64,000 nt of DNA from an uncultured Gammaproteobacteria bacterium (GTDB taxonomy: Bacteria > Patescibacteriota > Patescibacteriia > UBA11705 > DATKZF01). Location of the stretch: positions 50,147 through 114,146 of the forward strand of contig CAYPKD010000004.1 of assembly GCA_964411255.1 (NCBI GenBank), read 5' to 3'. A model generated the notes under the pieces. It was not told the origin of the DNA. It ran no database searches and saw only the letters and a program-made list of their open reading frames with translations. The stretch's first letter is position 1, and each line of letters opens with the position of its first letter. The position numbers and the translations under genes are program-made. Shown here in pieces: positions 4,695 to 49,103 of this stretch.

Positions 4695-4748
4695 ATAATT
4701 ATTTTTTTTAGAGAAATGCGAAAGGCGATATGCGACGAGTTTATTTTA

Positions 4749-4810
4749 TGCTGCTGCCTGAACTGTCATTCCTGCGTAGGCAGGAATCCAAGTTTAAAAG
4801 TGCAGCAGTA
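4749..4810. repeat. Dyad-symmetric element copy A: TGCTGCTGCC...GTCATTCCTGCgtagGCAGGAAT...GCAGCAGTA
   Basis: Nested inverted repeat, a member of a family also seen at 15344, 22522, 23975 and 41243. It is in inverted orientation relative to the others. Confidence 0.5.
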
Positions 4811-4834
4811 TTTTCGCTTCTTGCATTTCATTAT

Positions 4835-5395: not shown

Positions 5396-5540
5396 ATTTT
5401 TGGAGCTGGTTATTGGTCATTGGTCATAGCTGCCAGTTTTGTTTTAGGTTGTTGGGCATTGGTTTACCAATAATTAAAGCCTTTCGTTATTTTATACGAT
5501 ATTAAATTCAAAAAGTAACACTTGTATTGTAGCAGAAAAT

Positions 5541-7712: not shown

Positions 7713-8603
7713 TTATATTCTCGACTGCGGTTTAGGCTTAACTTTAAATAATTGTGAAAGCCAGGCCAGAAATAAACTAACCGGTGATAAAACACTCAAA
7801 ATAATGTAAGATACCAGTCCATGATGCTTTTTGAAATATATTCGCATTCCTTTATTAAATCTCTTTTGCTTGTCTAAACTTGGGACTTGTTCAAAAGATT
7901 TGCCTTCATAATGAATAATTTGACTTATTGGCGAATACACGATTTTATAACCTTGTTTTTTTATTCTTTTGCAAATATCAACATCCTCCCACCAAAGCCA
8001 GTAATCCTCATCCCAGCCATTGATTTTTTCTAAAATATTCTTTCTGGTTAAGATGCATGCACCCATCAGCTGGTCAACTTCCTGAGTTTGAGTATAATCA
8101 AAGTTTTTAGCTAAGTATTTTTTTAGACTTTTGGTTTTTATAAAATGATGTAGTTTTAATAAAATAAGTATTTGGTCTGAGATTTTTGGAAAATTTTTAA
8201 CAGTAGGCTGGATCGATTTATCAGGATATAATAAGGTACTGCCCAAGGCGCCAATATTTTGATCTTGCTTAATATAATTTATCATCTTCCCAATAGAATC
8301 ATCGATAAATTTCATATCTGGGTTTAAAAACCAAATATATTTTCCTTTGGCAGCTTTCCAGCCCAGGTTATTTGCTTTGGCAAACCCCAGGTTTTCTTGC
8401 TGAGCTAGGATTTTAAGATTGCCATTTTTAATTTCTCTGGCAAATTCCCATTTTATTTTATCAACAGTCCAGTCTTTTGAAGCATTATCAACTACAATTA
8501 TTTCAAAATCAATGTCTTTTGTATTATTAAAAATCGACTTAATAAAATTAAGCAATAATTCCTCCACATTCCATGAAACAATAACTATTGAAATGTCTTT
8601 CAT
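7713..8603 (-). CDS. Family 2 glycosyltransferase
   Basis: ISIVIVSWNVEELLLNFIKSI...IIVVDNASKD is the GT2 N-terminal signature, with a DxD region. Confidence 0.8.
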   Translation of the reverse strand: MKDISIVIVSWNVEELLLNFIKSIFNNTKDIDFEIIVVDNASKDWTVDKIKWEFAREIKNGNLKILAQQENLGFAKANNLGWKAAKGKYIWFLNPDMKFIDDSIGKMINYIKQDQNIGALGSTLLYPDKSIQPTVKNFPKISDQILILLKLHHFIKTKSLKKYLAKNFDYTQTQEVDQLMGACILTRKNILEKINGWDEDYWLWWEDVDICKRIKKQGYKIVYSPISQIIHYEGKSFEQVPSLDKQKRFNKGMRIYFKKHHGLVSYIILSVLSPVSLFLAWLSQLFKVKPKPQSRI

Positions 8604-18944: not shown

Positions 18945-19613
18945 TTATTTTACTTGAGTAACTTTACCTATTTGTCCTTTTTTTTCCAATTTTTTAGCTT
19001 GATCTAGCAGATCTGTATCAGTTTTTTTAATAAATATATTCATTGCTACTTTTAGATCATCTGGTAACTCTTTGATATTCGCATTTACAAGATGAAGATC
19101 TTTATTAACTACTAGGTTTCTAGGCAAATACTTAAAATCATTCCGTTCAATAATTAAAGTCCCATCAACAATTAAATGATTTGGTAATCTTTTAATATCA
19201 TAAACAGCAGGATTGATTCGAAGATCACCTTTTATTTTAAGATGTGGAAGAGGGGCTGATCTGTCAAACTTCTTCTCTATCCAATTTACAGCAGCTTGTC
19301 CTGAAAATCCGACTTCATTATGTACCCAGTCTAATACCTCTTCAGGAAGATTTAAATCAAAACCCTCATCTGACTTTTTTTTCTTTTCTTGTTCTTTTTT
19401 ATCTTTTATCCTTAATAATTCATTTTTATAATCAGTATACAAATTCAAAGCTTCTTGCAATTTCCCAGTTTTTTCCGCAGCTACAGCTTGATCCATTATC
19501 TTTCCGAGAAAATCCTTTTCTTCAGGAGTTAAAGGCACACGCTTAACTTCAGCGCGCTTTGGGCGGGCCATTTTGAGTTGATTTTCTAATGATTGGGGTT
19601 GTTCTTTTGGCAT
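18945..19613 (-). CDS. Paralog family member P7
   Basis: Same N-module. C-terminus has LPNHLIVDGTLIIERNDFKYLPRNLVVNKDLHLVNANIKELPDDLKVAMNIFI repeats. Confidence 0.8.
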   Translation of the reverse strand: MPKEQPQSLENQLKMARPKRAEVKRVPLTPEEKDFLGKIMDQAVAAEKTGKLQEALNLYTDYKNELLRIKDKKEQEKKKKSDEGFDLNLPEEVLDWVHNEVGFSGQAAVNWIEKKFDRSAPLPHLKIKGDLRINPAVYDIKRLPNHLIVDGTLIIERNDFKYLPRNLVVNKDLHLVNANIKELPDDLKVAMNIFIKKTDTDLLDQAKKLEKKGQIGKVTQVK

Positions 19614-19621
19614 AATTAGAG

Positions 19622-21103
19622 CTAAATTTCTATTACTCTTTTTACATATGTATTTTCATCTTTAGCAATGATATACGCCTTATTATCATTAATTGGTACA
19701 ACATGGTAAATTTTATCATAATCCTCACTAACTTTTTCTCTTTTTTCATTTACCATAAACCATTTATCACCTTTTTTTGCTTTAAAAACTAGCGTTCCTT
19801 CAATATCCTCAACAGAACTAATTTTATCATATTCATCACTAATTTTTTCACCTTTTTCATTAATTAAAAATTGTTTTCCATCGTTTTCTGCATAAAAAAT
19901 GATCCTACCTCCAATATCTAATGGATGCCTGACAAAATCATAGTCTTTTCCAATAATTTCACCCTTTTCATTTACAATGTATTTTTTTTTCTTGATTTTA
20001 ACTTGATAAAACATAATTCCTGCAACATTGAAAATGAACTCGATTCCATCATAATCTTCACTAAGTTTTTTGCCTTTTTCATCCACGATAAACCATTTAT
20101 CATCTTTTTTTGCTCCAAACACAAGTTTGCCCCCGATGTTTTTTGGAGTACCAATTTCCTCATAATCTTGTTCAAGTTCTTCCCCTTTTTCATTGACGAT
20201 AAACCATTTATTATCTCTGGTTGCCGAGAAAACAATATTCCCCCCAATATTATCCAGATATGAAATCCATTCATATCCTTTACTGATTTTTTCTCCTTTT
20301 TCATTAAATACAAACCATTCGCTACCCTGTCTGGCATGGAAAAACATTTTATCTTCAAAAAATTGAGGAGGATCAATAGCATTATATTCTTGCCCATATT
20401 TACCTTCTTTTTCATTCACCAGAAACCATTTACTACTATTTTTTTTTGTTTCACAGGCATGAAATACACATTCTCCTTTTACATTCATTAGATTTGAAAC
20501 AGATGAATAATTGCTGCCAATCTTTTCTCCTTTCTCATTTACTACAAAGTATTCATCGTTTTTCATTCCACTAATAAATAACTGCCCGGCTATATCAGTA
20601 ATATGATGTATTTCATCAAACGCTGCTCCTATTCTTTCTCCCTGTTCATTAACTACAAAACTCTTCTTATCCTGTTCAACAGGAAAAAATAACCTGCCTA
20701 GGCTATGCATAGGATTATGAGCAAAGTCATAGCCTTTTCCGATCTTTCTGTCTTGCCCATAAATAACATAAAATTTGCCATCTTTTTTTGCACTAAAAGC
20801 AATTTTACCTTCTATATCTGAAGGCTCATAATATTCTTCGTACTCATCTAAATTTATTGTATATTCCTGTTCCTTTTCTGAAATAGATTCCTTTATCTTT
20901 AACAATTCATTCTTATAGTCTGTATAAAATCCCAAAGCCTTTTCTAATTCTCCAGCCTTTTCCGCAACTACAGCTTTTTCCATAATCTCACCTAAGAATT
21001 CTTTTTCCTCAGGTGTCAACGGTACACGTTTAACCTCAGCGCGCTTTGGACGTGCCATCTTCAATTGACTTTCAAGTGATTGTTCAGTTTGTTCTGCTTT
21101 CAT
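19622..21103 (-). CDS. Paralog family member P8: N-module plus about nine WG-like beta repeats
   Basis: Same N-module, then repeats KWFIVNEKGEELEQDYEEIGTPKNIGGKLVFGAKKDDKWFIVDEKGKKL, reminiscent of KWG/WG repeats. Confidence 0.8.
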   Translation of the reverse strand: MKAEQTEQSLESQLKMARPKRAEVKRVPLTPEEKEFLGEIMEKAVVAEKAGELEKALGFYTDYKNELLKIKESISEKEQEYTINLDEYEEYYEPSDIEGKIAFSAKKDGKFYVIYGQDRKIGKGYDFAHNPMHSLGRLFFPVEQDKKSFVVNEQGERIGAAFDEIHHITDIAGQLFISGMKNDEYFVVNEKGEKIGSNYSSVSNLMNVKGECVFHACETKKNSSKWFLVNEKEGKYGQEYNAIDPPQFFEDKMFFHARQGSEWFVFNEKGEKISKGYEWISYLDNIGGNIVFSATRDNKWFIVNEKGEELEQDYEEIGTPKNIGGKLVFGAKKDDKWFIVDEKGKKLSEDYDGIEFIFNVAGIMFYQVKIKKKKYIVNEKGEIIGKDYDFVRHPLDIGGRIIFYAENDGKQFLINEKGEKISDEYDKISSVEDIEGTLVFKAKKGDKWFMVNEKREKVSEDYDKIYHVVPINDNKAYIIAKDENTYVKRVIEI

Positions 21104-21129
21104 ATTGTTATATGATATATGTTACATGA

Positions 21130-21852
21130 TTAAAGTTTTTCAGGCATAAATGATGCCTTTTCCGTTTTCATTAATTCTTTAATATACTTTTGTGCTTTTT
21201 TATCTTTTTTTATTGACTCTTCAAGATCCTTTTCAATCTCTGGCTTAATGTCCATCTCAAATCGTTCAAATGATTTTTCTGATAAATTTTCATCATTTAA
21301 AATTTCAATAATTTTCAAACTCTCTTCAGGTAAATTAAAAAAATCAAGCGAATTATCCTTTTCAACATTATATTTGTCAATCAATATTCTTCTAAATTTT
21401 CTCAGACCACCTATTTCAGCCATTGAATCTAAAACGAGCTCTTTTTGATTAACTACAAAATTTATTTCTTCCTGCCAATGCTGCGGGTCATCAGCCTTAG
21501 CCTTAGCCTTTGCCATTGTATATCTGCGAATTAAATAATCTAAAATCATTTCTCTTTTATATAATGTTTTAATATTATCAATTATCTCTTCATGTTTTTT
21601 CTCCTTTATACGATTTATTTCTTTTTTCCTCTCTTCCTGCAATTTATCGTTTATTTTCATTAATTCGTTTTTATAATCAGTATACAAATCTAGGGCTTCT
21701 TTTAGTTTCCCCGCTTTCTCTGCCGCCACTGCCTTATCCATTATCTTTCCGATAAATTCCTTTTCTTCTGGCGTTAAGGGCACACGCTTAACCTCACTCC
21801 GCCGCGAGCGGGCCATCTTCAATTGACTTTCAAGTGATTGTTCTGCTTTCAT
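21130..21852 (-). CDS. Paralog family member P9: N-module plus a helical, charged C-terminal domain
   Basis: Same N-module. The C-terminus has no LRR or WG repeats. Confidence 0.75.
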   Translation of the reverse strand: MKAEQSLESQLKMARSRRSEVKRVPLTPEEKEFIGKIMDKAVAAEKAGKLKEALDLYTDYKNELMKINDKLQEERKKEINRIKEKKHEEIIDNIKTLYKREMILDYLIRRYTMAKAKAKADDPQHWQEEINFVVNQKELVLDSMAEIGGLRKFRRILIDKYNVEKDNSLDFFNLPEESLKIIEILNDENLSEKSFERFEMDIKPEIEKDLEESIKKDKKAQKYIKELMKTEKASFMPEKL

Positions 21853-21867
21853 ATTGGTTTGAGCAAG

Positions 21868-22503
21868 TTACTGTTCTTCCAATCCCTTTACTCTCCCTTC
21901 GTTTATGGCTTTTAGTACAGATTCTCTTAATTTAGTTTTTGATGCATTACTAATAACTTTGCAATCAACTCTAATATCATCAGGCAATACTACAATATCA
22001 GTATCCAACAAATTTAAATTTCCTCTAACATGTAAATTATTGGGTAAATCGCCTAATGATGTGCCTTTTAATGAGAATTCTCCATCAATCTCTAAATTTT
22101 CAGGCATTTCAGTACAATTTTTTTTATGTTCAATTTTAATAGGACTATCAACTATAATTTTTGGATATTTACTAAAATCAACATTAGCATCTGTCCATGA
22201 TTCAATATTTGTATCTTCTATAAAAATTGATGAAAGCCATTCAATAAATTTTTGCCTGGTATTTTTTATTTTTTCAATTTGTTCCTTTTCTTCCTTTATT
22301 TTATTTAATTCATTTTTATAATCTGTATAATACCCCAAAGCCTCAGCCAATTTTCCTGCCTTTTCCGCAGCTACAGCTTTATCCATAATCTCACCTAAAA
22401 AAGCCTTTTCTTCTGGAGTTAATGGCACACGCTTAACCTCACTCCGCCGCGGGCGGGCCATTTGGAGTTGATTTTCTAATGATTGTTTTGGCTTTTCTTT
22501 CAT
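21868..22503 (-). CDS. Paralog family member P10; likely start at MKEKPKQSLEN
   Basis: Same N-module. C-terminus has MPENLEIDGEFSLKGTSLGDLPNNLHVRGNLNLLDTDIVVLPDDIRV repeats. Confidence 0.75.
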   Translation of the reverse strand: MKEKPKQSLENQLQMARPRRSEVKRVPLTPEEKAFLGEIMDKAVAAEKAGKLAEALGYYTDYKNELNKIKEEKEQIEKIKNTRQKFIEWLSSIFIEDTNIESWTDANVDFSKYPKIIVDSPIKIEHKKNCTEMPENLEIDGEFSLKGTSLGDLPNNLHVRGNLNLLDTDIVVLPDDIRVDCKVISNASKTKLRESVLKAINEGRVKGLEEQ

Positions 22504-22521
22504 AATAAAGGTAATATATTT

Positions 22522-22616
22522 CCGCTGATTTGGGATATTCAATTCTGTTAAATAGATCTCTCGACTGCGCCCTTCACAAGCTCAGGGCTTCGCTAGAGAT
22601 GACAGCTGGACAGCGG
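22522..22616. repeat. Dyad-symmetric element copy D, followed by a conserved TTGAAT...TATATT promoter-like box at 22489-22520 for P10
   Basis: CCGCTGATTTGGG...ATCTCTCGActgcgccc...gcTAGAGATGACAGCTGGACAGCGG. Confidence 0.5.
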
Positions 22617-22624
22617 TATTAAAC

Positions 22625-23946: not shown

Positions 23947-23974
23947 GTGATTTATATCCTGGAATTATAATTAC

Positions 23975-24038
23975 TGCGTTAGGTAATACAAAACTATTAG
24001 CAAATTCCCACCTTTGCGGGAATGACGGACAGGACAGC
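23975..24038. repeat. Dyad-symmetric element copy B, with an adjacent TTGTAT...TAATTC promoter-like box for 23251..23946
   Basis: ATTCCCACctttGCGGGAATGACGGACAGGACAGC. The hairpin covaries with copy A (ATTCCTGC/GCAGGAAT). Confidence 0.45.
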
Positions 24039-24039
24039 T

Positions 24040-25080
24040 TTATTTATTAATAAATTCTTTTGCTAAATCAATATAATCAGAATATCCATGCTTTTTCATA
24101 TAATACCACCATTCTACTCCCCAAATATAATATTTTTCAAAACCAGCTTCTTTTGCATATTCAGTATTTTCTATAAATAATTCCGGACTGAATTTTTCAT
24201 ATTGCTCGATTATTGGCACACTGGTAAATGGTACATTAAACCATGGTTCCATTTGAAATTCAGCAACTATTACTTTATCTACCCTTTTTTCTGCCAAATA
24301 AGCTCTTTTTGAATACCAGGCTGGGGGGCTGGCCCAGTGAAAGTCTCCAAGTAAAGGATTAGAAACATCGCGATACATTGTAATACCTAAAATATCAGCA
24401 TATTTTGTAACATTCAGCCAGGTGCTTAATTCTCCAGAATCAGTAAGCATTATTTGTCTATCTGGATCAAGAGAATGAACCAAATCAATTTCATTTACAA
24501 AAATTTCTTTGTTTGGCTTTGGACATCTGCCAAATGGAAATAGCGCCTCATTTTCAACCTGCCACATATTAATAACCTTTTTATCTTTATATCTATTTAC
24601 AACTGTCTCAATCATTTCTAAAAGCTCTTTTTCCTTTGTGTCATACATTAAATCCTGCACCCAGTCTGGTTCATAGCATTCTGGCCAGCGAAGCAATTTT
24701 CTGCCAACAGCTAATACAACCTTGCCATCTCTTTTTTCTACTTCATTGATCATCCAATCTAATTGTTCAAAATTATATTGATTATTTTCAGGCTCAATTT
24801 CATCCCAATAAGCGGAAATCCTGACATCTGTTAATTTCAGTTCATCAAGCATGTTTATAAAAGTATTTTGCCAGTCTAAATGCAATTCCTGGGCAAATCG
24901 TGGGCTAAAAGTAACGCCCCACTCTGGATTATTATTTCTCGGCTTTTCTGGTAGTAATGAATATAAAAAAAAGAAAATTGCCAAAGCAAGTAATATGATC
25001 ATTACTATTATAAATACTATAAATCTAATTTTAATTTTTTGTGGTTTTGGTTTTCTTTTTAGTTTTTTCTTTTTCACCAT
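24040..25080 (-). CDS. Membrane-anchored glycoside hydrolase, clan GH-A (GH5/GH113-like)
   Basis: Basic N-terminus and one TM. INMWQVENEALFPFG contains the conserved NEP-type acid/base motif of clan GH-A. Confidence 0.55.
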   Translation of the reverse strand: MVKKKKLKRKPKPQKIKIRFIVFIIVMIILLALAIFFFLYSLLPEKPRNNNPEWGVTFSPRFAQELHLDWQNTFINMLDELKLTDVRISAYWDEIEPENNQYNFEQLDWMINEVEKRDGKVVLAVGRKLLRWPECYEPDWVQDLMYDTKEKELLEMIETVVNRYKDKKVINMWQVENEALFPFGRCPKPNKEIFVNEIDLVHSLDPDRQIMLTDSGELSTWLNVTKYADILGITMYRDVSNPLLGDFHWASPPAWYSKRAYLAEKRVDKVIVAEFQMEPWFNVPFTSVPIIEQYEKFSPELFIENTEYAKEAGFEKYYIWGVEWWYYMKKHGYSDYIDLAKEFINK

Positions 25081-33476: not shown

Positions 33477-33667
33477 TCCCCACCTCCTTGCATAGGGGGT
33501 CAGACGGGATTGCAAACCAGCTATTTGCTGATTTTCAACGAGCTTTTGGCGTTTTTGCCATAGTAAAAATTACTCCTTTTTATTCTTTTTGTCAAGCTTT
33601 TCTCAAATTATTATATTTGACAATTTTCAGTGCTCATGATATTATTTATTATCCAAAGGAGGCATGA

Positions 33668-38153: not shown

Positions 38154-39238
38154 TAAAAATTAAATACTGGATTTGCTATATATTTTAAAATTGGATTTTC
38201 AAAATCACCCTGATATAAAACTTTTCCCGTAAAATTCCAGACTACTTTTCTTTCTTTGACAATTCGCTTTTTCTGAACTTTCTTTCTCCAATTCCAAACT
38301 AATTTTAAATTCTTAGCGCTAAAAAACCATTTATATACTTTTAATCTTTGCTTAAACCAGCCGTTACATAATGAAAAGCCGAATAAACCCAATTCATATG
38401 AAACAAATGCTGGGAAAAGTAATATTAATGTTGCCCAATGATAACAAACTAAGGTGGTAATCATGCGGTTTCGTTCCATCCAAAAAAACTGCTTTATGCT
38501 TTTTATAAATTCAAATTTATGATAAACCACTGATTTGTAAGCAATCACATTTTTTAAACCATAAAGCTTTGTTTTCCAACCCCATTCCAAATCATCATGG
38601 TACATAAAATACTCTTCAGTAAACTCACCAATCTTTTCAAAAACTTGTTTTGAAACCAGCATTGCTGCGCCGCTGGGATATACAATTTGATCTGATTCTT
38701 TTTCAATATTCAATTCTGAAAATTTTTCCTTATATTTATCAGAAAATCCAAAACCTAAAAAATGCAATGAATTTCCCAGGCTATTTATTAATTCTGGCTG
38801 CTGATGCAGCATTAACCTTGACTGAATTAAACCAATCTTTGGATCTGATTTATATATTTTCAGCGCTTCAATTAAAAAATTCGGATCAACTGTAGTATCC
38901 ATATTTAACATAAAAAAATAATCATAACCCTGCTGTATTGCCCTTTCAATTCCAGCATTATTTGCTGCTCCAAAACCAACATTTTCAGCATTGACCACAA
39001 TGCCAGCCTGGATTCTATCAGTTTCCCCCATTCCAAAATCAAACTGCGGGCACAAATCCATAATATCCTTCCTTGTCTGCTCGCTTGATTCATTATCTAC
39101 AATAAAAATTTTCAAAAGTTCCTTTGGATAATTAACTTTGCTCAAACTGTCAGCGCATTCTTTTAGAAACCGCCTGGCATAATCCTTGTAATTGATTAAT
39201 ATTATTGCAATTTTAAAATTACTATTCATATATAACAT
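38120..39238 (-). CDS. Family 2 glycosyltransferase
   Basis: IAIILINYKDY...FIVDNES GT2 signature. Confidence 0.75.
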   Translation of the reverse strand: MLYMNSNFKIAIILINYKDYARRFLKECADSLSKVNYPKELLKIFIVDNESSEQTRKDIMDLCPQFDFGMGETDRIQAGIVVNAENVGFGAANNAGIERAIQQGYDYFFMLNMDTTVDPNFLIEALKIYKSDPKIGLIQSRLMLHQQPELINSLGNSLHFLGFGFSDKYKEKFSELNIEKESDQIVYPSGAAMLVSKQVFEKIGEFTEEYFMYHDDLEWGWKTKLYGLKNVIAYKSVVYHKFEFIKSIKQFFWMERNRMITTLVCYHWATLILLFPAFVSYELGLFGFSLCNGWFKQRLKVYKWFFSAKNLKLVWNWRKKVQKKRIVKERKVVWNFTGKVLYQGDFENPILKYIANPVFNFYWQVVKRIIFW

Positions 39239-39803
39239 CTAAACAGATCTTGTTAGATTTAGCTAACTCCGCTGCCTCTACTAACTCCTTGTTTTCTCGA
39301 TCAACTATAATATTAAGTGTAACAAATAAATGTGCAGGCAATTTTTTTAATAATTTACACCCTTTAAGATTTAAGTTGCCAATAACTTTTAAATGAGCAG
39401 GTAGTTGTGTAATACTTGAATCATGCACTGTAAGATTCTCTCCTGCTACTCGTATATCTGGCGGCTCACTTAAATTAAAATTATGCGCAGTCCAATGCCA
39501 AGCAGCATCATCTTCATCTGTAATGCCAATTTCATCTCTCACCCATTCATGCAGCATATCAAAATCCCATTGCTCTTTATCCTTTTCTTTTTTTTCTTTA
39601 ATCTTTAACAATTCATTTTTATAATCAGTATACAAATTCAAAGCCTCTTGCAATTTCCCAGTTTTTTCCGCAGCCACAGCTTTGTCCATAATTTCACCCA
39701 GAAATTCCTTTTCTTCTGGAGTCAAAGGCACACGTTTAACCTCATGGCGCCGCGGCCGGGCCATTTTTAATTGGCTTTCTAAAGATTGCGGTTGTTCTGG
39801 CAT
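39222..39803 (-). CDS. Paralog family member P11; likely start at MPEQPQSLES
   Basis: Same N-module. C-terminus has LPAHLKVIGNLNLKGCKLLKKLPAHLFVTLNIIV repeats. Confidence 0.75.
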   Translation of the reverse strand: MPEQPQSLESQLKMARPRRHEVKRVPLTPEEKEFLGEIMDKAVAAEKTGKLQEALNLYTDYKNELLKIKEKKEKDKEQWDFDMLHEWVRDEIGITDEDDAAWHWTAHNFNLSEPPDIRVAGENLTVHDSSITQLPAHLKVIGNLNLKGCKLLKKLPAHLFVTLNIIVDRENKELVEAAELAKSNKICLDVIYE

Positions 39804-39844
39804 ATAGTAATAAGTAACGGGTAATTGGTAATTAGGAATTGATA

Positions 39845-41227
39845 TCAAATCTCAATTATTTTTTTCACAATTTTATCTCCTTCTTCGTCTGTAATTCGAG
39901 CAATAATATATGCTTTATTGTCAGTCAAAGGCTCAAGGCAATAAATTTCATCATACTTTTCACTCACTGCTTTACCTTGTTCATTTGCCACAAACCATGA
40001 TCCATCTCCCTCGTCACTAGCAATAATGGCTATTTCCCCTCCTATATCCTCTATTTGCCCAATAAGATAGTAATCTGCAATTTGTTCTCCTTTTTCATTT
40101 ACCACATACCACTTATCTTTTAAAGCTGTGAAAACAATAGTTCCGTTAATATCTTTGATATTATCAGTACGCTTATATCCCTGATCCCTTCCAATCTCTG
40201 TTCCATCTTCAGTGACTATAAATGAATTCCCCTCTCTGTCAATTGAAGAATAAATAATTTTACCAGCAACCTCTAGTGGTTTTCCAATCCCTCCATATTT
40301 TTCCCCAAACTCTCTTCCGTTTTCATCTACAATTATCCATCTTCTACCCTTTTTTGCCTGATAAACTAATTTTCCTCCTATTTCCATCGGACTTTCAACA
40401 TAAAGATAAGCCTCTCCAAATTCTTCACCATCTTCATTGGCAATAATCCATTTTTTTCCTTTTTTACCGCGAAAAGTAATTTTATTATTAATAAATCTTA
40501 AGTCTTTTACATCATCATATTCTTTTCCTAATTCCTTTCCATCCTCATTAGCAATAATCCATCTTTCACCCTGCTTGGCTAAAAAAAATATTTTACCCTT
40601 AATAAACTCAGGTAAATCAACTGAATCATATTGTTCACCAATTTTTTTGCCTTTTTCGGTATATATAAAAGCCTTACCGTCTTTTTTTGCTATAAAAACT
40701 ATTTGGCCCCCTAAATCTTCAGGACATACAACATTATCAAATTCTCCACCAACCTTTTTCCCTTTTTCATTAATTATAAATTCTTTATTGCCTTTTCTAG
40801 CATTAAATGCTGCCCGTCCATTAATATTTTTTAGGTTCCACGTTAAATCATATTCTTCTCCGATTTGTTCTCCTTTTTCATTAATTACTAAATGTTTTTC
40901 ATTCTTATCCGTTACTTCTATTACTGGCTTTCCATTAATATCTACTGGATCTGCATGATCAATATAATCTTTTAAGTCAATAGTGAATTCTGATCCTTTT
41001 TCAGCTAAAGATTCTTTAATTCGCAGCAATTCATTTTTATATTCTGTATACAAATTCAAGGCTTCCTGCAACTTTCCGGCCTTTTCCGCAGCCACAGCCT
41101 TATCCATAATCTCACCCAGAAAATCCTTTTCTTCTGGCGTCAGCGGAACACGCTTAACCTCATGGCGCCGCGGCCGGGCCATTTTGAGTTGGGATTCGAG
41201 GGATTGTTTTGGTTTTTCTTTTGGCAT
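39845..41227 (-). CDS. Paralog family member P12: N-module plus WG-like beta repeats
   Basis: Same N-module. Repeats KWIIANEDGKELGKEYDDVKDLRFINNKITFRGKKGKKWIIANEDGEEFG. Confidence 0.8.
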   Translation of the reverse strand: MPKEKPKQSLESQLKMARPRRHEVKRVPLTPEEKDFLGEIMDKAVAAEKAGKLQEALNLYTEYKNELLRIKESLAEKGSEFTIDLKDYIDHADPVDINGKPVIEVTDKNEKHLVINEKGEQIGEEYDLTWNLKNINGRAAFNARKGNKEFIINEKGKKVGGEFDNVVCPEDLGGQIVFIAKKDGKAFIYTEKGKKIGEQYDSVDLPEFIKGKIFFLAKQGERWIIANEDGKELGKEYDDVKDLRFINNKITFRGKKGKKWIIANEDGEEFGEAYLYVESPMEIGGKLVYQAKKGRRWIIVDENGREFGEKYGGIGKPLEVAGKIIYSSIDREGNSFIVTEDGTEIGRDQGYKRTDNIKDINGTIVFTALKDKWYVVNEKGEQIADYYLIGQIEDIGGEIAIIASDEGDGSWFVANEQGKAVSEKYDEIYCLEPLTDNKAYIIARITDEEGDKIVKKIIEI

Positions 41228-41242
41228 AAGGTTTTAAATTTA

Positions 41243-41316
41243 CCGCTGCCTTTGGTTATTCAATACTATCAGAAAGATCTCTCGACTTCGCTCGAGATGA
41301 CAAGCTAGGCAGCGGG
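41243..41316. repeat. Dyad-symmetric element copy C, followed by a conserved TTGAAT promoter-like box for P12; overlaps the 3' end of 41256..41657
   Basis: CCGCTGCCTTTGG...ATCTCTCGActtcgcTCGAGATGACAAGCTAGGCAGCGGG. Confidence 0.5.
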
Positions 41317-41657
41317 TCAGCGTCTTTCCCCTTCTCCGCCTTATCAATTGATATGTCTTTTACCAAATATGTAATATCTCTCTCAATCTTTTCAATTCTG
41401 GCAAAAATTCTAAACACTATATAAAATAAAACTAAAATTGAAATATAAATCACCACATCAACTCCTCGGCCAACTCCCAGCCAATCAGCGACTAGCTGCG
41501 TTGTTTGCGGCAAGACAACAATAACTCCGACTGCAATCCAAAAAATTAGCCATAATAAAAAGACCTGAATGCTAAATTCTCTTTTTTTAAGCTTTATTGC
41601 CAAACGATAAATTACATAAGCGATAAAAATTAAAATCAGAATTTGGATTAAATTCAT
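41256..41657 (-). CDS. DUF2304-like small membrane protein
   Basis: 4-TM protein directly downstream of a DPM1-like GT2, the usual pairing. Its last 20 codons are encoded by element C. Confidence 0.55.
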   Translation of the reverse strand: MNLIQILILIFIAYVIYRLAIKLKKREFSIQVFLLWLIFWIAVGVIVVLPQTTQLVADWLGVGRGVDVVIYISILVLFYIVFRIFARIEKIERDITYLVKDISIDKAEKGKDADPLPSLSSRAKSRDLSDSIE

Positions 41658-46318: not shown

Positions 46319-47134
46319 TTAAATTATTCCAGTAGGCGCAATCCGCGCCAAAAATAGATTTCTTTTTTTATCTCCTGCCACTCTAGACCAAAATTCTCCC
46401 TCATGGCAAGTACAGCTACTATCCCAGCCAAACTGAAATTCCTGTTCGAGAACATCTGAGTCATCAATGCCCAGCCTATCTGCTTCGCAATAAATCATTT
46501 GCTGCAAATGATAAGAAACCTTGCCTTTGCGAGGGCCATGCTCTACTTCTTTAAGACACAAACGAGTTCCCCACTTACCAAACCTTGATCTAATTTCCTG
46601 CTCCTGCTTTTCATCTTTATCATGTCCATAACAGCACGGGCCAATACCACAGCCAACCCAAAACCTTAATTTCTCAGGCGGAGTCTTTAAAACCATTACC
46701 ACTTCTTCTAATATTGAATAATTCCATCCTCGTCTAAAAATATTTTTTAATCCTAAACGCACAACGCACATTGCTTTTTGAATTGGATCCCAGACAACTC
46801 CGATCGGGCAATCATAGGTTAAAATTCCGATTCCCACTCGGGTGTCGCGAAAAACAAGACCTGCATCTGAATCATTTTGCGTCCGCCAAAGACCTGGTCC
46901 TAATTGAATCGTATTTGAATCATGAAAATTCGCAACCCCAGTCTTAAATTCTACTCTTGGAAAAAACATTTGTTCAATATTAAGAGCAGACATAATTTCT
47001 TTTCTTTTCGCCGCTCCTGCTTCAGTTTGCAGCAAACTGCTACTATCTCCATGGCCTTTACCTAAAAAAATATATTCAACTGCTCCGTCAAAAAGTTTTT
47101 TCCGCTCAAAGGCCATTTTTTCTCCTTTCCTCAT
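46319..47134 (-). CDS. YfiH/PgeF (DUF152) family protein, copy 1
   Basis: TYDCPIGVV and WVGCGIGPCCYGHD motifs. Confidence 0.7.
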   Translation of the reverse strand: MRKGEKMAFERKKLFDGAVEYIFLGKGHGDSSSLLQTEAGAAKRKEIMSALNIEQMFFPRVEFKTGVANFHDSNTIQLGPGLWRTQNDSDAGLVFRDTRVGIGILTYDCPIGVVWDPIQKAMCVVRLGLKNIFRRGWNYSILEEVVMVLKTPPEKLRFWVGCGIGPCCYGHDKDEKQEQEIRSRFGKWGTRLCLKEVEHGPRKGKVSYHLQQMIYCEADRLGIDDSDVLEQEFQFGWDSSCTCHEGEFWSRVAGDKKRNLFLARIAPTGII

Positions 47135-47934
47135 CTGGGAAGCAATCTGGCCACAAAAGCATTTCTTGGATATTCTCTGTCAGCATCTCTGACATTGGAC
47201 CAAAAATCTCCATAACCATCAGCATTTGGATCTTTCATGCCAAAACATGAAGTACATCTCTTGTCACAGATAATTTTTCCAAAACCTAGATTTAATGCTT
47301 GTCGATAAATTATTTTCAAATTGTCATGGGCAACATGCAAGCCGCCTTTTCTTGGCCCATATGAAACATTGCCTTCAACCACATCTGGTCCGTATTCTTT
47401 TCTTAAAAATGACATTCTTTCCCTATTCTTATCTCCGTATTTTGGATGCTCGATTGGATAGCCATTGCAGCAAGGGCCAATTCCTCCGCCAATCCAAAGA
47501 TTCAACTTTTCTGGAGGCCTACGTAGCTCTTTCACAGCTTGTTCTAAAATTGTATATTCTTTATAATCCTCTCTATAAATATTGCATATGCCCATATGAA
47601 TCATGCAAAGCGTATGAAATTCTGGATCATAAATAAGTCCAATATGACAGTCAGCTGTAAAAATTACAATTGCCACTTCTGTATTGTTTCTGATAATACC
47701 ACCATCAGCTGAAATCGTTGATATTAAGAGCCCAGTATCAGTAAATACTACGAGAGGTTCATCAATATCAAGCACTGTAGTTGAACATTCTACAGAAGGA
47801 ACAAACAAATACTCGACCTGTAATTCCTGCATTAATCTTTGTCTTAATTCTGCAGAACTTGGATCTTTTGGATGAAAATTTCCCCATTTTCTACCAATTA
47901 AATCATATTTAACATATTTGAAAACGGTCTTCAT
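47131..47934 (-). CDS. YfiH/PgeF (DUF152) family protein, copy 2
   Basis: FTADCHIGLIYD and WIGGGIGPCCNGY motifs. A tandem paralog of the previous gene. Confidence 0.7.
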   Translation of the reverse strand: MKTVFKYVKYDLIGRKWGNFHPKDPSSAELRQRLMQELQVEYLFVPSVECSTTVLDIDEPLVVFTDTGLLISTISADGGIIRNNTEVAIVIFTADCHIGLIYDPEFHTLCMIHMGICNIYREDYKEYTILEQAVKELRRPPEKLNLWIGGGIGPCCNGYPIEHPKYGDKNRERMSFLRKEYGPDVVEGNVSYGPRKGGLHVAHDNLKIIYRQALNLGFGKIICDKRCTSCFGMKDPNADGYGDFWSNVRDADREYPRNAFVARLLPR

Positions 47935-48647: not shown

Positions 48648-49103
48648 TTAGAGTAGTTCTTCTAATTTCTGACTTTCATCATCAGTAACCAATGAATTGC
48701 GTTTAAATATTTCAATTATTTTCCGCTTAAATTTCATTTCCTTTTCTTTATTTCTTTCAATCCTTCTTCCAATCTCAGCAGCTAAATCAGCCAATTTGTT
48801 ATCCAAATACATCTTATCTGGATACTGATTTTTTACTGTCATTTTAAAATCAGATAATTCAGTTTTAACTTGACTTAGACCACCTTCAACTTTATCAAGC
48901 CTGCCTTCAACTTTATCAAGCCTGCCTTCAACTTTATCAAGCCTGCCTTCAACTTTATCAAATCTTTTTCCCACCTCTAAAAATCCAGTTTGCACAGCAC
49001 CAGCTAAATTATCAATTTTTTCATTGGTTTTCTTAAATTCTTGTTTTATTTCCTCATCCATATATATAATTTTAGCACACAAAATCAATTTAGTAAATTT
49101 CAT
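48648..49103 (-). CDS. Coiled-coil protein with (RLDKVEG)n heptad repeats
   Basis: VEGRLDKVEGRLDKVEGRLDKVEGGL, encoded by tandem 21-bp repeats at 48883-48962. Confidence 0.5.
   Translation of the reverse strand: MKFTKLILCAKIIYMDEEIKQEFKKTNEKIDNLAGAVQTGFLEVGKRFDKVEGRLDKVEGRLDKVEGRLDKVEGGLSQVKTELSDFKMTVKNQYPDKMYLDNKLADLAAEIGRRIERNKEKEMKFKRKIIEIFKRNSLVTDDESQKLEELL

What the first reader, a model, noticed from the sequence alone, without database searches (positions are those of the whole stretch)
41243..41316. Dispersed dyad-symmetric element of about 70-100 nt with a covarying central hairpin, positioned upstream of minus-strand genes
Five copies were found: 4749-4810, 15344-15440, 22522-22616, 23975-24038 and 41243-41316, with a partial copy near 7720.

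Each has outer inverted repeats (CCGCTGCC...GGCAGCGG), a central hairpin whose stem differs between copies yet stays paired (ATTCCTGC/GCAGGAAT, ATTCCCAC/GCGGGAAT, TCTCGA/TCGAGA, GTCCGCC/GGCGGAC), and a conserved ATGACA(A/G)GC flank.

In three copies the side next to the gene carries a conserved TTGNNT...CCAAAGGCAGCGG...A/T-rich box about 45-100 nt before the ATG of P4, P10 and P12; copy B has a weaker version before the DUF389 gene. Copy A is inverted and sits in the leader of the VWA gene, downstream of the ECF sigma gene.

Stem covariation with conserved flanks suggests a structured RNA, a protein-recognised operator, or a small mobile promoter cassette (MITE/REP-like).
Basis: seen in the sequence. 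Interest (0 to 1): 0.7.

Follow-up and report, generated by a model that had tools for sequence, protein, structure and literature searches.

The report
NTS-like hairpin repeat beside variable genes
A 75-105-base repeat scattered between genes of an uncultured, probably Patescibacteria (CPR) bacterium has at its core the same oriented DNA hairpin signal that single-strand DNA nucleases recognise in Neisseria, and it sits mostly at the front of arrays of a fast-changing gene family, so it is a new example of a recently described kind of repeat, not a new kind of RNA.

Summary
Five copies lie in the window (A 4744-4816 +; B 15340-15445, C 22517-22623, D 23966-24047 and E 41238-41322, all -). The "partial copy near 7720" is not supported. 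Ten further copies were found in related metagenome contigs.

Architecture: CCGCTGCC, 4-7 nt, invariant GTCAT, a hairpin whose stem covaries and whose tip takes insertions, ATC, a conserved TAGTWTTGWATAA block, then CCAAAGCAGCGG.

Two stems are supported: 93.5% of cells paired against 86.6% in shuffles, and 7 pairs with double changes. All 11 wobble pairs are G·T on the GTCAT strand.

Copies occur in both orientations relative to neighbouring genes, which rules out a leader RNA. They are present or absent at orthologous sites, and 10 of 15 sit just upstream of a lineage-specific paralog family.

Nine copies match the 28-nt Neisseria Transformation Sequence (CGTCATTCCCGCGMAVGCGGGAATCYRG) at 23-26 positions. 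That sequence is the single-strand DNA target of the GIY-YIG nuclease SsnA.

Best reading: an NTS/SRM-type hairpin inside a lineage-specific mosaic repeat, probably a recombination-modulating signal that also donates a promoter. No ssn gene was found in the DNA held, so the partner is unproven. New member of a known kind.

The parts
41238..41322 (-). Copy E, the whole element as matched by the covariance model. It lies between the DUF2304 gene, whose ORF tail it overlaps, and the first gene of a two-gene paralog array.
   Evidence: cmsearch 59.5 bits, E = 3e-14; nhmmer E = 1e-20; sequence read.
41307..41315 (-). E: 5' arm of the outer inverted repeat (CCGCTGCCT on the element strand).
   Evidence: Pairs with 41243-41251 (9 bp).
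41297..41301 (-). E: invariant GTCAT immediately 5' of the hairpin. It corresponds to the oriented flank of the NTS/SRM motif.
   Evidence: GTCAT is invariant in 15 of 15 copies. [quoted passage not shown]
41280..41297 (-). E: central hairpin TCTCGA-GCGAAG-TCGAGA, a variant stem type, followed by ATC and a T-rich run.
   Evidence: Folds. Listed as terminator-like. Stem covariation.
41252..41279 (-). E: conserved 3' block ATCTTTCTGATAGTATTGAATAACCAAAG. It contains the -35-like TTGAAT at 41258-41263.
   Evidence: Alignments. The same ATAGTATTGATAACC block is present in the 69%-identity relative L150.
41243..41251 (-). E: 3' arm of the outer inverted repeat (AGGCAGCGG on the element strand).
41225..41242 (-). 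E: flank TAAATTTAAAACCTT plus ATG. It contains a -10-like TAAATT (41237-41242) directly after the repeat arm, and the paralog start codon at 41225-41227.
   Evidence: Sequence. The promoter reading is inferred, not shown.
15340..15445 (-). Copy B. Its hairpin has a long tip insertion (GTCCGCC/GGCGGAC). It lies inside a paralog array.
   Evidence: cmsearch 39.1 bits; nhmmer E = 1e-16. It is 98.2% identical over 112 nt to copy H of L132, while the adjacent orthologous genes are 83-89% identical.
15438..15488 (-). 17-codon 5' fragment of a paralog (MNIKEKPQLPKSQLQMA) fused to the 5' arm of copy B at ...CAAATGGCT|CGCTGCC.
   Evidence: The same junction occurs in L132 copy H.
22517..22623 (-). Copy C, between the AhpC-like gene and the first paralog of the 18284-22503 array. 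Its hairpin has an inner CCCT/AGGG stem.
   Evidence: Absent from the 92%-identity relative L147, which also lacks the four adjacent paralogs.
23966..24047 (-). Copy D, between a glycoside-hydrolase-like gene and DUF389. Its core matches the Neisseria NTS at 24 of 28 positions.
   Evidence: cmsearch 82.3 bits; NTS match. Present in L147 but absent in L150 and L151, where the two genes are 2-6 nt apart.
4744..4816 (+). Copy A, inverted relative to the flanking minus-strand genes (ECF sigma upstream, VWA downstream). It lacks the 3' block. Its core matches the NTS at 23 of 28 positions.
   Evidence: cmsearch 58 bits. The same intergenic region is empty in L153 and L154, and holds two different modules in L155.
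12510..16202 (-). Paralog array 1: five genes plus the fragment. It is inserted between the AMMECR1 and HD/OB genes.
   Evidence: The backbone without the arrays is seen in L150.
18284..22503 (-). Paralog array 2: five genes, headed by copy C. It is inserted between the AhpC-like and QueA genes.
39222..41227 (-). Paralog array 3: two genes, headed by copy E.

Best explanation
The repeat is a lineage-specific intergenic mosaic element of 75-105 nt. Its functional core is an oriented hairpin signal of the NTS / Ssn-related-motif (SRM) type: (C/T)GTCAT, then a 5-9-bp stem (commonly ATTCCYGC...GCRGGAAT), then C.

**Inferred mechanism, by analogy with Neisseria.**

- When the GTCAT strand is single-stranded (incoming transforming DNA, or the lagging-strand template), the hairpin forms.
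- A small GIY-YIG Ssn-type nuclease, encoded elsewhere in the genome, binds it and cuts a few nucleotides upstream.
- This shortens or redirects recombination at that site.

The copies sit mostly at the 5' edge of arrays of a fast-evolving paralog family with LRR-like or beta-repeat C-termini. There they would act as recombination-modulating or breakpoint signals.

The shell around the core is the outer repeat CCGCTGCC/GGCAGCGG plus the TAGTWTTGWATAA block. It spreads together with the core and probably supplies an outward-reading promoter for the array: -35 TTGWAT inside the element, -10 just past its edge.

**Shown:** the anatomy, strand-specific pairing, independence of orientation, presence/absence at orthologous sites, association with the arrays, and near-identity of the core to the NTS.

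**Inferred:** recognition by an Ssn nuclease, the effect on recombination, and promoter activity.
For: 1. **Core identity.** Nine of 15 copies match the 28-nt NTS consensus at 23-26 positions, including its non-palindromic flanks. In 50 shuffles of the window no site reached more than 18/28 often (mean 0.38 sites at 18/28 or better). Copy D' in L147 matches the published degenerate SRM expression exactly.
2. **The positions that matter for SsnA are the conserved ones.** GTC upstream of the palindrome is needed for cleavage, and GTCAT is 15/15 here. The C just after the palindrome is the most critical base for binding, and it is 13/15 here.
3. **Loop tolerance.** SsnA tolerates any loop and extensions at the loop. 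Here the hairpin tip takes insertions of 20-35 nt in B, C, H, K, M and L150 while the stem base stays paired.
4. **Stems are conserved by compensation.** 93.5% of cells are paired against 86.6 ± 1.0 in shuffles. Seven pairs have double changes against 3.2 ± 1.1 (0 of 500 shuffles reach this). Slid controls give 28-53% paired. RNAalifold finds the same helices on its own.
5. **Strand specificity.** There are 11 G·T pairs on the GTCAT strand and 0 A·C, including in the inverted copies A, K and L. SsnA acts on one strand only, and not on RNA or double-stranded DNA.
6. **Both orientations.** Copies occur in both orientations relative to the genes they precede.
7. **Turnover at orthologous sites.**
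   - D is present in the window and L147 but absent in L150 and L151.
   - The sigma-VWA spacer is empty in L153/L154, holds two different modules in L155 and holds A in the window.
   - Upstream of the orthologous genes P0001/P0002 the element is of a different type: B in the window, G in L132.
8. **Rearrangement joints at the element.**
   - Copy C plus four paralogs form one indel block.
   - B and H are each joined to a paralog stump at CAAATGGC|CCGCTGCC.
   - B and H are 98.2% identical, while flanking genes are 83-89% identical.
9. **Location bias.** Ten of 15 copies lie directly upstream of paralog-family genes. This parallels the clustering of NTS/dRS3 next to variable surface genes in Neisseria (PMC11893778; PMC1797815).
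10. **Promoter part.** TTGWAT lies 15-18 nt before TANNNT in 10 sense copies. The 25-30 nt from the -10 to the ATG are 100% conserved between D and D', while the element body is 89% identical.
Against: - **No partner gene found.** No GIY-YIG/ssn gene was found in the window by Pfam on about 60 ORFs. None was found in the roughly 250 kb of related DNA held, using a motif regex and phmmer with probes recalled from memory. The rest of the genome could not be searched.
- **Weak fit to the published expression.** None of the five window copies matches the published SRM regular expression exactly. With mismatches allowed, the expression is not specific.
- **Variant stems.** Six copies, including the focal copy E, carry different stems (ATCTC/GAGAT, ATTTC/GAAAT). 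For Neisseria SsnA, changing the palindrome sequence while keeping the structure abolished activity. These copies would therefore need another Ssn specificity, or they are inactive.
- **Unexplained parts.** The SRM model does not explain the outer inverted repeat or the 3' block.
- **Thermodynamics is neutral.** Folding energies with DNA parameters do not distinguish the two strands.
- **Promoter and terminator scans are uninformative** in this AT-rich DNA.
- **Statistical caveats.** The pair counts were made on a model-fitted alignment of related copies. The number of independent compensatory events is small: about 3 stem types plus one C-G/T-A switch.
Confidence: 0.55

Rival explanations
1. 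A conventional non-autonomous transposable element (MITE, or REP/BIME/REPIN-like). It would be moved by a transposase encoded elsewhere, either a DDE enzyme that recognises the CCGCTGCC terminal repeats or a Y1 HUH enzyme (RAYT/IS200-like) that recognises the hairpin. Gene-proximal copies would be retained because they carry a promoter.
For: - Terminal inverted repeats of 7-11 bp, small size and no coding capacity.
- Both orientations occur, and copies are present or absent at orthologous sites.
- Mosaic doublets occur in L150 (tandem) and L155 (tail to tail), like BIMEs.
- The strand-specific hairpin with a conserved 5' tag resembles GTAG-tagged REPs.
- The authors of PMC11893778 themselves note that the NTS-ssnA-NTS layout looks like an insertion sequence and resembles IS200/IS605-REP systems.
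Against: - No consistent target-site duplication at any copy.
- Homology often runs past the 3' repeat arm into the leader, as in the pairs B/I and G/J.
- No transposase, RAYT or IS200-like gene in the window or the held loci.
- Copy C moved as part of a 3.6-kb block together with paralogs, not on its own.
- The near-identity of the core to the NTS points to Ssn rather than to a transposase.
Confidence: 0.2
2. Not mobile and not a single-strand signal. On this reading it is simply the shared 5' regulatory region (upstream terminator or insulator hairpin plus promoter) of the paralog arrays, copied whenever an array is duplicated or seeded. A few orphan remnants (A, D, L) would be left behind.
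For: - Ten of 15 copies directly precede paralog genes.
- The element, the leader and the N-terminal coding region are homologous as one unit in B/I/F and in G/J.
- The hairpin of E followed by TCTTTCT scores as terminator-like.
- In L150 the outer stem is followed by T7.
- The -10 and leader are perfectly conserved between D and D'.
Against: - K and M precede paralogs in the inverted orientation.
- A, D, L and the L150 and L155 copies have no paralog nearby.
- D is a clean ~93-nt indel between two genes unrelated to the paralogs.
- The sigma-VWA spacer was occupied independently by different subtypes.
- A promoter or terminator explains neither the 23-26/28 identity to a Neisseria motif nor the one-strand G·T bias in inverted copies.
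Confidence: 0.15
3. A structured RNA: either a cis-regulatory leader or intercistronic processing and stability element, or a small RNA gene.
For: - Two helices with compensatory changes, and G·U only on one strand.
- A weak match (24.9 bits, E = 0.02, below the gathering score of 66) to the Francisella sRNA FtrB, which contains the same hairpin.
- Sense copies would be co-transcribed with upstream genes.
Against: - Four of 15 copies are antisense to all neighbouring genes yet keep the same strand-specific pairing.
- There is no conserved promoter 5' of the element.
- No Rfam family reaches its gathering score.
- The putative -35 lies inside the element, so transcripts starting there would exclude the structure.
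- SsnA does not bind the RNA form of the NTS.
Confidence: 0.07
4. An invertible promoter switch. A site-specific recombinase would flip the 55-90-bp segment between the inverted repeats and so switch the paralog arrays on or off.
For: - Inverted repeats flank a segment that holds a -35-like box.
- The element is found in both orientations in front of the same gene family (E, C, G, J against K, M).
- It precedes variable, possibly surface- or host-interaction proteins.
Against: - The same locus was never seen in two orientations: E in 4 assemblies, J in 4, and D in the window plus three other assemblies.
- The repeat arms are short and often imperfect (J, D, C, M).
- The segment is very short for synapsis.
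- No recombinase gene is present in the window.
- A switch does not explain the strand-specific pairing or the NTS identity.
Confidence: 0.03

Closest known systems
Neisseria Transformation Sequence (NTS) and Ssn-related motifs (SRM), the targets of the GIY-YIG single-strand nuclease SsnA (Chenal et al., Nat Commun 2025, PMC11893778)
   Same: - Oriented hairpin repeat with a (C/T)GTCAT flank, an ATTCCCGC/GCGGGAAT stem and a C after the stem. Type-1 copies here match at 23-26 of 28 positions.
- The loop is free and can be extended.
- Intergenic and multi-copy.
- Strand-specific.
- Clustered next to variable genes.
   Different: - The host here is a ~32% G+C, probably Patescibacteria, bacterium. 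The paper surveyed RefSeq representative genomes and found Ssn mainly in Pseudomonadati.
- The motif is embedded in a fixed 75-105-nt unit with an outer inverted repeat and a conserved 3' block.
- Several stem variants coexist.
- The cognate ssn gene has not been found.
- Only one copy matches the published SRM expression exactly.
Neisserial intergenic mosaic elements (NIMEs: dRS3 ATTCCC-N8-GGGAAT repeats separated by RS elements) (Bentley et al. 2007, PMC1797815)
   Same: - The same ATTCC...GGAAT palindrome.
- Mosaic combinations of modules: tandem in L150, tail to tail in L155.
- Sits next to genes with raised variability.
- Syntenic arrays differ between relatives, which suggests recurrent recombination.
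   Different: - Copies here are mostly single units, not long dRS3-RS-dRS3 arrays.
- The shell sequences are unrelated.
- No phage or Piv-type recombinase link was seen.
Correia repeat-enclosed elements (CREE) and REP2 of Neisseria, and 'putative mobile promoters' (PMC2649163, PMC3184786, PMC3488235)
   Same: - Small repeats often found 5' of genes.
- They carry or create promoters, at either or both ends in the case of CREE.
- REP2 has internal stem-loops and sits immediately upstream of a co-regulated gene set.
   Different: - No TA duplication and no 26-51-bp terminal repeats.
- No sequence similarity.
- Promoter activity here is only inferred.
REP / BIME / REPIN elements with RAYT (Y1 HUH) transposases
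   Same: - A short GC-rich hairpin with a conserved, oriented 5' tag.
- Recognised as single-stranded DNA.
- No target duplication.
- Doublets occur.
   Different: - The tag is GTCAT, not GTAG or CGTC.
- No RAYT or IS200-like gene was found in the DNA held.
- Copies are mostly upstream rather than downstream of genes.
Rfam RF02748 FtrB (Francisella small RNA)
   Same: Its consensus contains GUCAUUCCCGCGUAGGCGGGAAUCUCUUUAAU. This is the same core and the first ~10 nt of the 3' block of copies G and J.
   Different: - The score is far below the family threshold (24.9 against 66 bits).
- The rest of the RNA does not align.
- The shared part is probably an NTS-like repeat inside FtrB, not homology of the RNAs.

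Membership tests
NTS / Ssn-related motif (SRM) hairpin repeats | Conserved, oriented flank (C)GTCAT 5' of the palindrome. [quoted passage not shown] | tested here: met
   GTCAT is invariant in 15 of 15 copies, and the base before it is C or T. The feature is taken from PMC11893778.
NTS / Ssn-related motif (SRM) hairpin repeats | Palindromic stem of the ATTCCCGC...GCGGGAAT type, where sequence matters as well as structure. | tested here: inconclusive
   Nine of 15 copies, including window copies D (24/28) and A (23/28), are near-identical to the NTS. Six copies, including E, B and C, have other stems (12-19/28 in fixed register), comparable to the published NTSvar but not the same.
NTS / Ssn-related motif (SRM) hairpin repeats | Cytosine immediately 3' of the palindrome, the most critical base for SsnA binding. 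| tested here: met
   C in 13 of 15 copies. It is T in J and in window copy D.
NTS / Ssn-related motif (SRM) hairpin repeats | Match to the published degenerate expression HGTCWYN(0-2)YYVSBRHN(0-5)WNVSBRGN(0-2)RNCYNB. | tested here: not met
   - There are 0 exact matches in the window.
- Only D' in L147 matches exactly.
- G and I match with one substitution, in the loop.
- With 1-2 mismatches the expression is no more frequent in the window than in shuffles.
NTS / Ssn-related motif (SRM) hairpin repeats | Many copies per genome, almost all intergenic. | tested here: met
   Five copies in 64 kb and 15 distinct copies in about 180 kb of the clade. All lie between genes or at gene ends. The genome-wide count is not available.
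NTS / Ssn-related motif (SRM) hairpin repeats | A cd10448 GIY-YIG ssn gene in the same genome, often flanked by the motif. | tested here: inconclusive
   None was found in the window (Pfam). None was found in the ~250 kb held (using memory-based probes). Most of the genome could not be searched.
NTS / Ssn-related motif (SRM) hairpin repeats | Bound and cut only as single-stranded DNA, and only on the motif strand. | not testable with these tools
   Indirect support only: 11 G·T against 0 A·C pairs on the GTCAT strand.
MITE (miniature inverted-repeat transposable element) | Terminal inverted repeats. | tested here: met
   CCGCTGC(C)/(G)GCAGCGG arms of 6-11 bp, with 89.5% of cells paired. However, homology often continues beyond the 3' arm.
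MITE (miniature inverted-repeat transposable element) | Target-site duplication flanking each copy. | tested here: not met
   No consistent direct repeat at any of the 15 copies. Only an ambiguous ATAAAT at the AT-rich D site.
MITE (miniature inverted-repeat transposable element) | Insertion polymorphism at orthologous sites. | tested here: met
   The D site is filled in the window and L147 but empty in L150 and L151. The sigma-VWA spacer is empty in L153 and L154 but filled in the window and L155.
REP/BIME with RAYT | A GTAG- or CGTC-tagged palindrome, plus a RAYT gene flanked by REPs. | tested here: not met
   The tag is GTCAT. tblastn with an IS200 TnpA probe found nothing (best E = 1.5) in 248 kb. 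The whole genome was not searched.
cis-regulatory leader RNA / riboswitch | Fixed sense orientation and position in the 5' UTR of the regulated gene. | tested here: not met
   A, K, L and M are antisense to the genes they precede. No Rfam family reaches its gathering score.
Invertible promoter (fimS-type switch) | The same locus is found in both orientations, with a recombinase gene present. | tested here: not met
   Loci E, J and D each have the same orientation in all four assemblies seen; for D these are the window plus three others. No recombinase gene is in the window. Read-level data were not available.
Integron attC site | R''/L''-L'/R' boxes with an RYYYAAC/GTTRRRY core, one per cassette, and an integron integrase. 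| tested here: not met
   The core sequences are absent, there is a 33-nt conserved asymmetric internal block, there is one element per array rather than per gene, and there is no integrase.

The most novel reading that the evidence does not exclude
The NTS-like hairpins could be the working joints of a programmed diversification system in a CPR bacterium. Single-strand cuts at GTCAT hairpins placed at the heads of arrays would drive gain, loss and exchange of blocks of a hypervariable LRR/beta-repeat protein family between co-resident strains.

Observations compatible with this:

- the block made of copy C plus four paralogs;
- the B/H joint at codon 17 of a paralog;
- 98% identity of the element across genomes whose genes are only 83-89% identical.

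Each transferred block would arrive already carrying a promoter. That would be a cassette-exchange mechanism distinct from integrons and shufflons.
Probability: 0.12. Interest if true: 0.75.

Novelty: new member of a known kind. Interest (0 to 1): 0.45.

Why it matters
- **Host range.** If the reading holds, the NTS/SRM-Ssn system extends to the Candidate Phyla Radiation. The system was described in 2025 and has been characterised mainly in Pseudomonadati. CPR bacteria have tiny genomes and are thought to depend on DNA uptake.
- **A testable link.** The reading ties a single-strand DNA signal to the turnover of a lineage-specific variable protein family.
- **Annotation.** It gives a concrete label to a class of 'structured' intergenic repeats that would otherwise be mistaken for riboswitch-like RNAs. 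It also explains spurious ORF extensions such as the tail of the DUF2304 gene.
- **Limits.** This is not a new kind of element. The functional steps (nuclease partner, effect on recombination, promoter activity) remain inferred.

Tried and rejected
1. **Genome-contig scan.** The 17-nt pattern TCTTTCTGWTAGTWTTG returned 120 chance hits. None is the element by nhmmer.
2. **Metagenome-contig scan.** A 37-bit gapped pattern gave 11 hits, of which only L132 and L133 are real. The window's own contig was not returned, so absence elsewhere is weak evidence.
3. **Viral-contig scan**: one chance hit.
4. **Promoter and terminator scans**: no enrichment over shuffles. Only C's TTGAAT-18-TATATT and E's hairpin were listed.
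5. **'Solo' GTCAT hairpins in the window**: none convincing. The control gave more hits than the real sequence, so the test is uninformative.
6. **Target-site duplications:** none found.
7. **Transposase, RAYT, recombinase and GIY-YIG genes.** Not found by Pfam on about 60 window ORFs, tblastn, a motif regex or phmmer.
8. **DNA-parameter folding of both strands**: the energies do not discriminate, and the type-3 hairpin of K folds no better than shuffles.
9. **Integron attC, riboswitch or leader RNA, double-strand operator:** rejected on anatomy and orientation.
10. **Partial copy near 7720:** rejected.
11. **L150 elements as orthologues of copy A:** rejected, because the neighbouring genes differ.
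Full report
**Context**

The window has 32% G+C and nearly all genes are on the minus strand. The same DNA occurs on a 364,661-bp JGI metagenome contig and in several other assemblies. The nearest named homologues of two window proteins come from Patescibacteria, such as Magasanikbacteria, at about 50% identity. The organism is therefore probably an uncultured CPR bacterium.

Yes. I read all five stated sites and aligned them.

- A profile built from them recovers exactly those five in the window, with E-values from 1e-20 to 1e-9. The next hit has E = 2.8.
- A covariance model run with filters off gives the same five.
- A gapped pattern through the conserved blocks hits B, C and E, with zero expected.
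- The claimed partial copy near 7720 is an 11-nt coincidence lying around the 3' end of a gene.

**Anatomy**

I define the element strand as the one carrying GTCAT 5' of the hairpin. On that strand the parts are, in order:

1. (C)CGCTGCC.
2. A 4-7-nt spacer.
3. An invariant GTCAT.
4. A hairpin.
5. ATC(T).
6. A conserved block, roughly TAGTWTTGWATAA.
7. CCAAAG(G)CAGCGG.

The window copies are B 15340-15445, C 22517-22623, D 23966-24047 and E 41238-41322 on the minus strand, and A 4744-4816 on the plus strand. A lacks the 3' block.

**More copies**

- The one scan of reference genomes was lost to chance hits.
- The metagenome scan found two small related contigs (L132, L133).
- The copies B, C and E precede members of a 13-copy paralog family, so I fetched other members of that family and their contexts. 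I also fetched orthologous loci of the DUF389 and ECF-sigma genes in relatives at 69-92% protein identity.

In about 180 kb of this clade the model finds 15 distinct copies and nothing else:

| Copy | Locus |
|---|---|
| A-E | window |
| F | L125 |
| G, H | L132 |
| I | L133 |
| J, L | L145 |
| K, M | L146 |
| D' | L147 |
| one scored module, with a second tandem one | L150 |

Two more divergent modules lie in L155.

**Structure**

I counted pairs on the model-derived alignment.

- 93.5% of cells form standard pairs, against 86.6 ± 1.0 in column shuffles and 28-53% when partners are slid.
- Seven of 15 pairs show changes on both sides, against 3.2 ± 1.1. No shuffle out of 500 reaches any of these three values.
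- The hairpin base exists in three compensating versions: ATTCC/GGAAT, ATCTC/GAGAT and ATTTC/GAAAT. One level deeper there is a C-G/T-A switch.
- RNAalifold predicts the same two helices independently.
- The hairpin tip accepts insertions of 20-35 nt in B, C, H, K, M and L150.
- All 11 wobble pairs are G·T on the element strand. None is the A·C that would be a wobble on the other strand. This holds for the inverted copies A, K and L.

Caveats: the alignment is fitted to the model, the copies are related, and the number of independent compensatory events is small.

**Orientation and position**

- Ten of the 15 copies lie directly upstream of a paralog-family gene.
- K and M do so in the inverted orientation. 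A (before the VWA gene) and L (before dciA) are also inverted.
- This excludes a leader RNA or riboswitch. No Rfam family reaches its threshold.

**Turnover at orthologous sites**

- D is present in the window and in the 92% relative L147. In the 69-75% relatives L150 and L151 the two flanking genes are only 2-6 nt apart.
- The sigma-VWA spacer is empty in L153 and L154, holds two different modules in L155, and holds A in the window.
- C is missing in L147 together with four adjacent paralogs, so it moved as part of a 3.6-kb block.
- The orthologous genes P0001/P0002 are preceded by B in the window but by G in L132.
- B and H are 98.2% identical over 112 nt, while neighbouring genes are 83-89% identical.
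- B and H are both joined to a 17-codon paralog stump at CAAATGGC|CCGCTGCC.
- No target-site duplication is visible at any copy.
- The paralog arrays are themselves insertions into a backbone (AhpC-QueA-SpoU-AMMECR1-HD) that is uninterrupted in L150.

**Identification of the core**

A permissive Rfam scan of copy J gave a weak hit to the Francisella sRNA FtrB. Its consensus contains GUCAUUCCCGCGUAGGCGGGAAUCUCUUUAAU. A full-text search for GTCATTCCCGC led to Chenal et al. 2025 (PMC11893778). That paper reports the following:

- The Neisseria Transformation Sequence is CGTCATTCCCGCGMAVGCGGGAATCYRG. It is a hairpin that includes the dRS3 repeat and has an orientation-giving 5' flank.
- The 94-aa GIY-YIG nuclease SsnA binds it and cuts a few nucleotides upstream. 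It does so only on single-stranded DNA and only on that strand. It does not act on RNA or on duplex DNA.
- The C after the palindrome is critical for binding, and the three bases before it are critical for cutting.
- The loop is free and can be extended.
- The repeats cluster beside variable surface genes.
- Related motifs (SRM) accompany ssn homologues in several phyla.

How the copies here compare:

- Nine of the 15 copies match the 28-mer at 23-26 positions. Window copy D matches at 24 and A at 23. Shuffled windows rarely reach even 18.
- GTCAT is 15/15 and the C after the stem is 13/15.
- D' matches the published degenerate SRM expression exactly. G and I miss by one loop base. The window copies do not match it, and the expression loses specificity when mismatches are allowed.
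- The focal copy E has a variant stem (TCTCGA/TCGAGA) but keeps GTCAT and ATC.

**What this explains and what it does not**

A single-strand DNA recognition signal explains:

- the strand-specific pairing;
- independence of gene orientation;
- the invariant flank;
- the free hairpin tip;
- the location beside variable genes;
- the rearrangement joints at the element.

It does not explain the outer inverted repeat or the 3' block. These form a lineage-specific shell, analogous to the RS modules of neisserial mosaic elements (PMC1797815).

The shell places a TTGWAT 15-18 nt before a TANNNT at the element edge, 9-50 nt before the ATG. The stretch from the -10 to the ATG is perfectly conserved between D and D', while the element body is 89% identical. 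I therefore infer that the element also donates a promoter, as Correia and REP2 repeats do. The consensus scan cannot confirm this in AT-rich DNA.

**Missing piece**

- No GIY-YIG, RAYT/IS200, DDE transposase or recombinase gene is present in the window, after Pfam on about 60 ORFs.
- None is present in about 250 kb of related DNA (the probes were recalled from memory).
- The remaining roughly 80% of the genome could not be reached with the capped tools.

**Verdict**

The finding is a real, statistically supported repeat family. Its best-supported identity is an NTS/SRM-type single-strand DNA hairpin embedded in a lineage-specific mosaic element that heads variable gene arrays in a probable CPR bacterium.

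- It is a new member of a known kind.
- The RNA and operator readings are not supported.
- The 'mobile promoter cassette' reading is partly right.

| Claim | Confidence |
|---|---|
| The core is homologous to NTS/SRM | about 0.85 |
| The whole mechanism as stated | about 0.55 |

Noticed in passing
window 12510-16202, 18284-22503 and 39222-41227 (minus strand): Thirteen paralogs share a conserved 75-aa N-terminus (MPKEQPQSLESQLKMARPKRAEVKRVPLTPEEK...) and have variable C-termini, either LRR-like (PDB 8z5u, E = 1e-5) or built of 37-aa repeats. Only 57 relatives exist among 5.8 billion proteins. The arrays are insertions into a gene backbone that is uninterrupted in the relative L150.
   Followed up: partly
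window 19622-21103 and 39845-41227: Two paralogs carry 8-10 tandem 111-nt (37-aa) repeats of the form ...GK..F.VNEKGE.I...YD.I.... They have no Pfam or NCBIfam family. They may be a beta-propeller-like repeat.
   Followed up: no
window 30525-33515 (minus strand): A 996-aa ORF with Major Vault Protein shoulder (E = 1e-23) and Vault_3 domains. It sits in a 40% G+C island within a 32% G+C genome, which is unusual for a bacterium and suggests horizontal acquisition.
   Followed up: no
window 15299-15345 and about 5396-5440; also L125 7807-7860 and L133 690-740: The leaders just upstream of several start codons (the paralog after B, the ECF sigma gene, and the paralogs after F and I) consist of ~7-nt AATGAC(C)-type repeats, for example CTAATGACCAATGACAAATGTCTAATGACC. 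L150 has analogous AATTTCCAAT repeats before its elements.
   Followed up: no
window 15438-15488: A 17-codon stump of a paralog is fused to copy B. The same joint occurs in a relative (L132, copy H), pointing to recombination within the short shared sequence CCCGC between the paralog N-terminal coding region and the element arm.
   Followed up: partly
window 41256-41330: The last ~25 codons of the DUF2304 ORF (the Pfam domain ends at residue 108 of 133) are read through copy E. The annotated C-terminal tail is probably an artefact or by-product of the repeat.
   Followed up: partly
window 48864-48968: Four tandem 21-nt repeats (TTCAACTTTATCAAGCCTGCC) lie inside a 151-aa coiled-coil ORF at 48648-49103.
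   Followed up: no
window 46319-47934: Two adjacent Cu-oxidase_4 (YfiH/laccase-like) genes lie in a 38% G+C stretch.
   Followed up: no
L145 7849-7965 (copy J) against Rfam RF02748: The consensus of the Francisella sRNA FtrB contains an NTS-like hairpin plus CUCUUUAAU, so that Rfam family may be built around an Ssn-related repeat.
   Followed up: partly
L146 19649-20038 and L150 17990-18361: Genes for 23S_rRNA_IVP (four-helix-bundle) proteins lie in intergenic slots that are empty in the window's syntenic region (GT2 to Wzy_C). This is another small insertion-prone gene in this clade.
   Followed up: no
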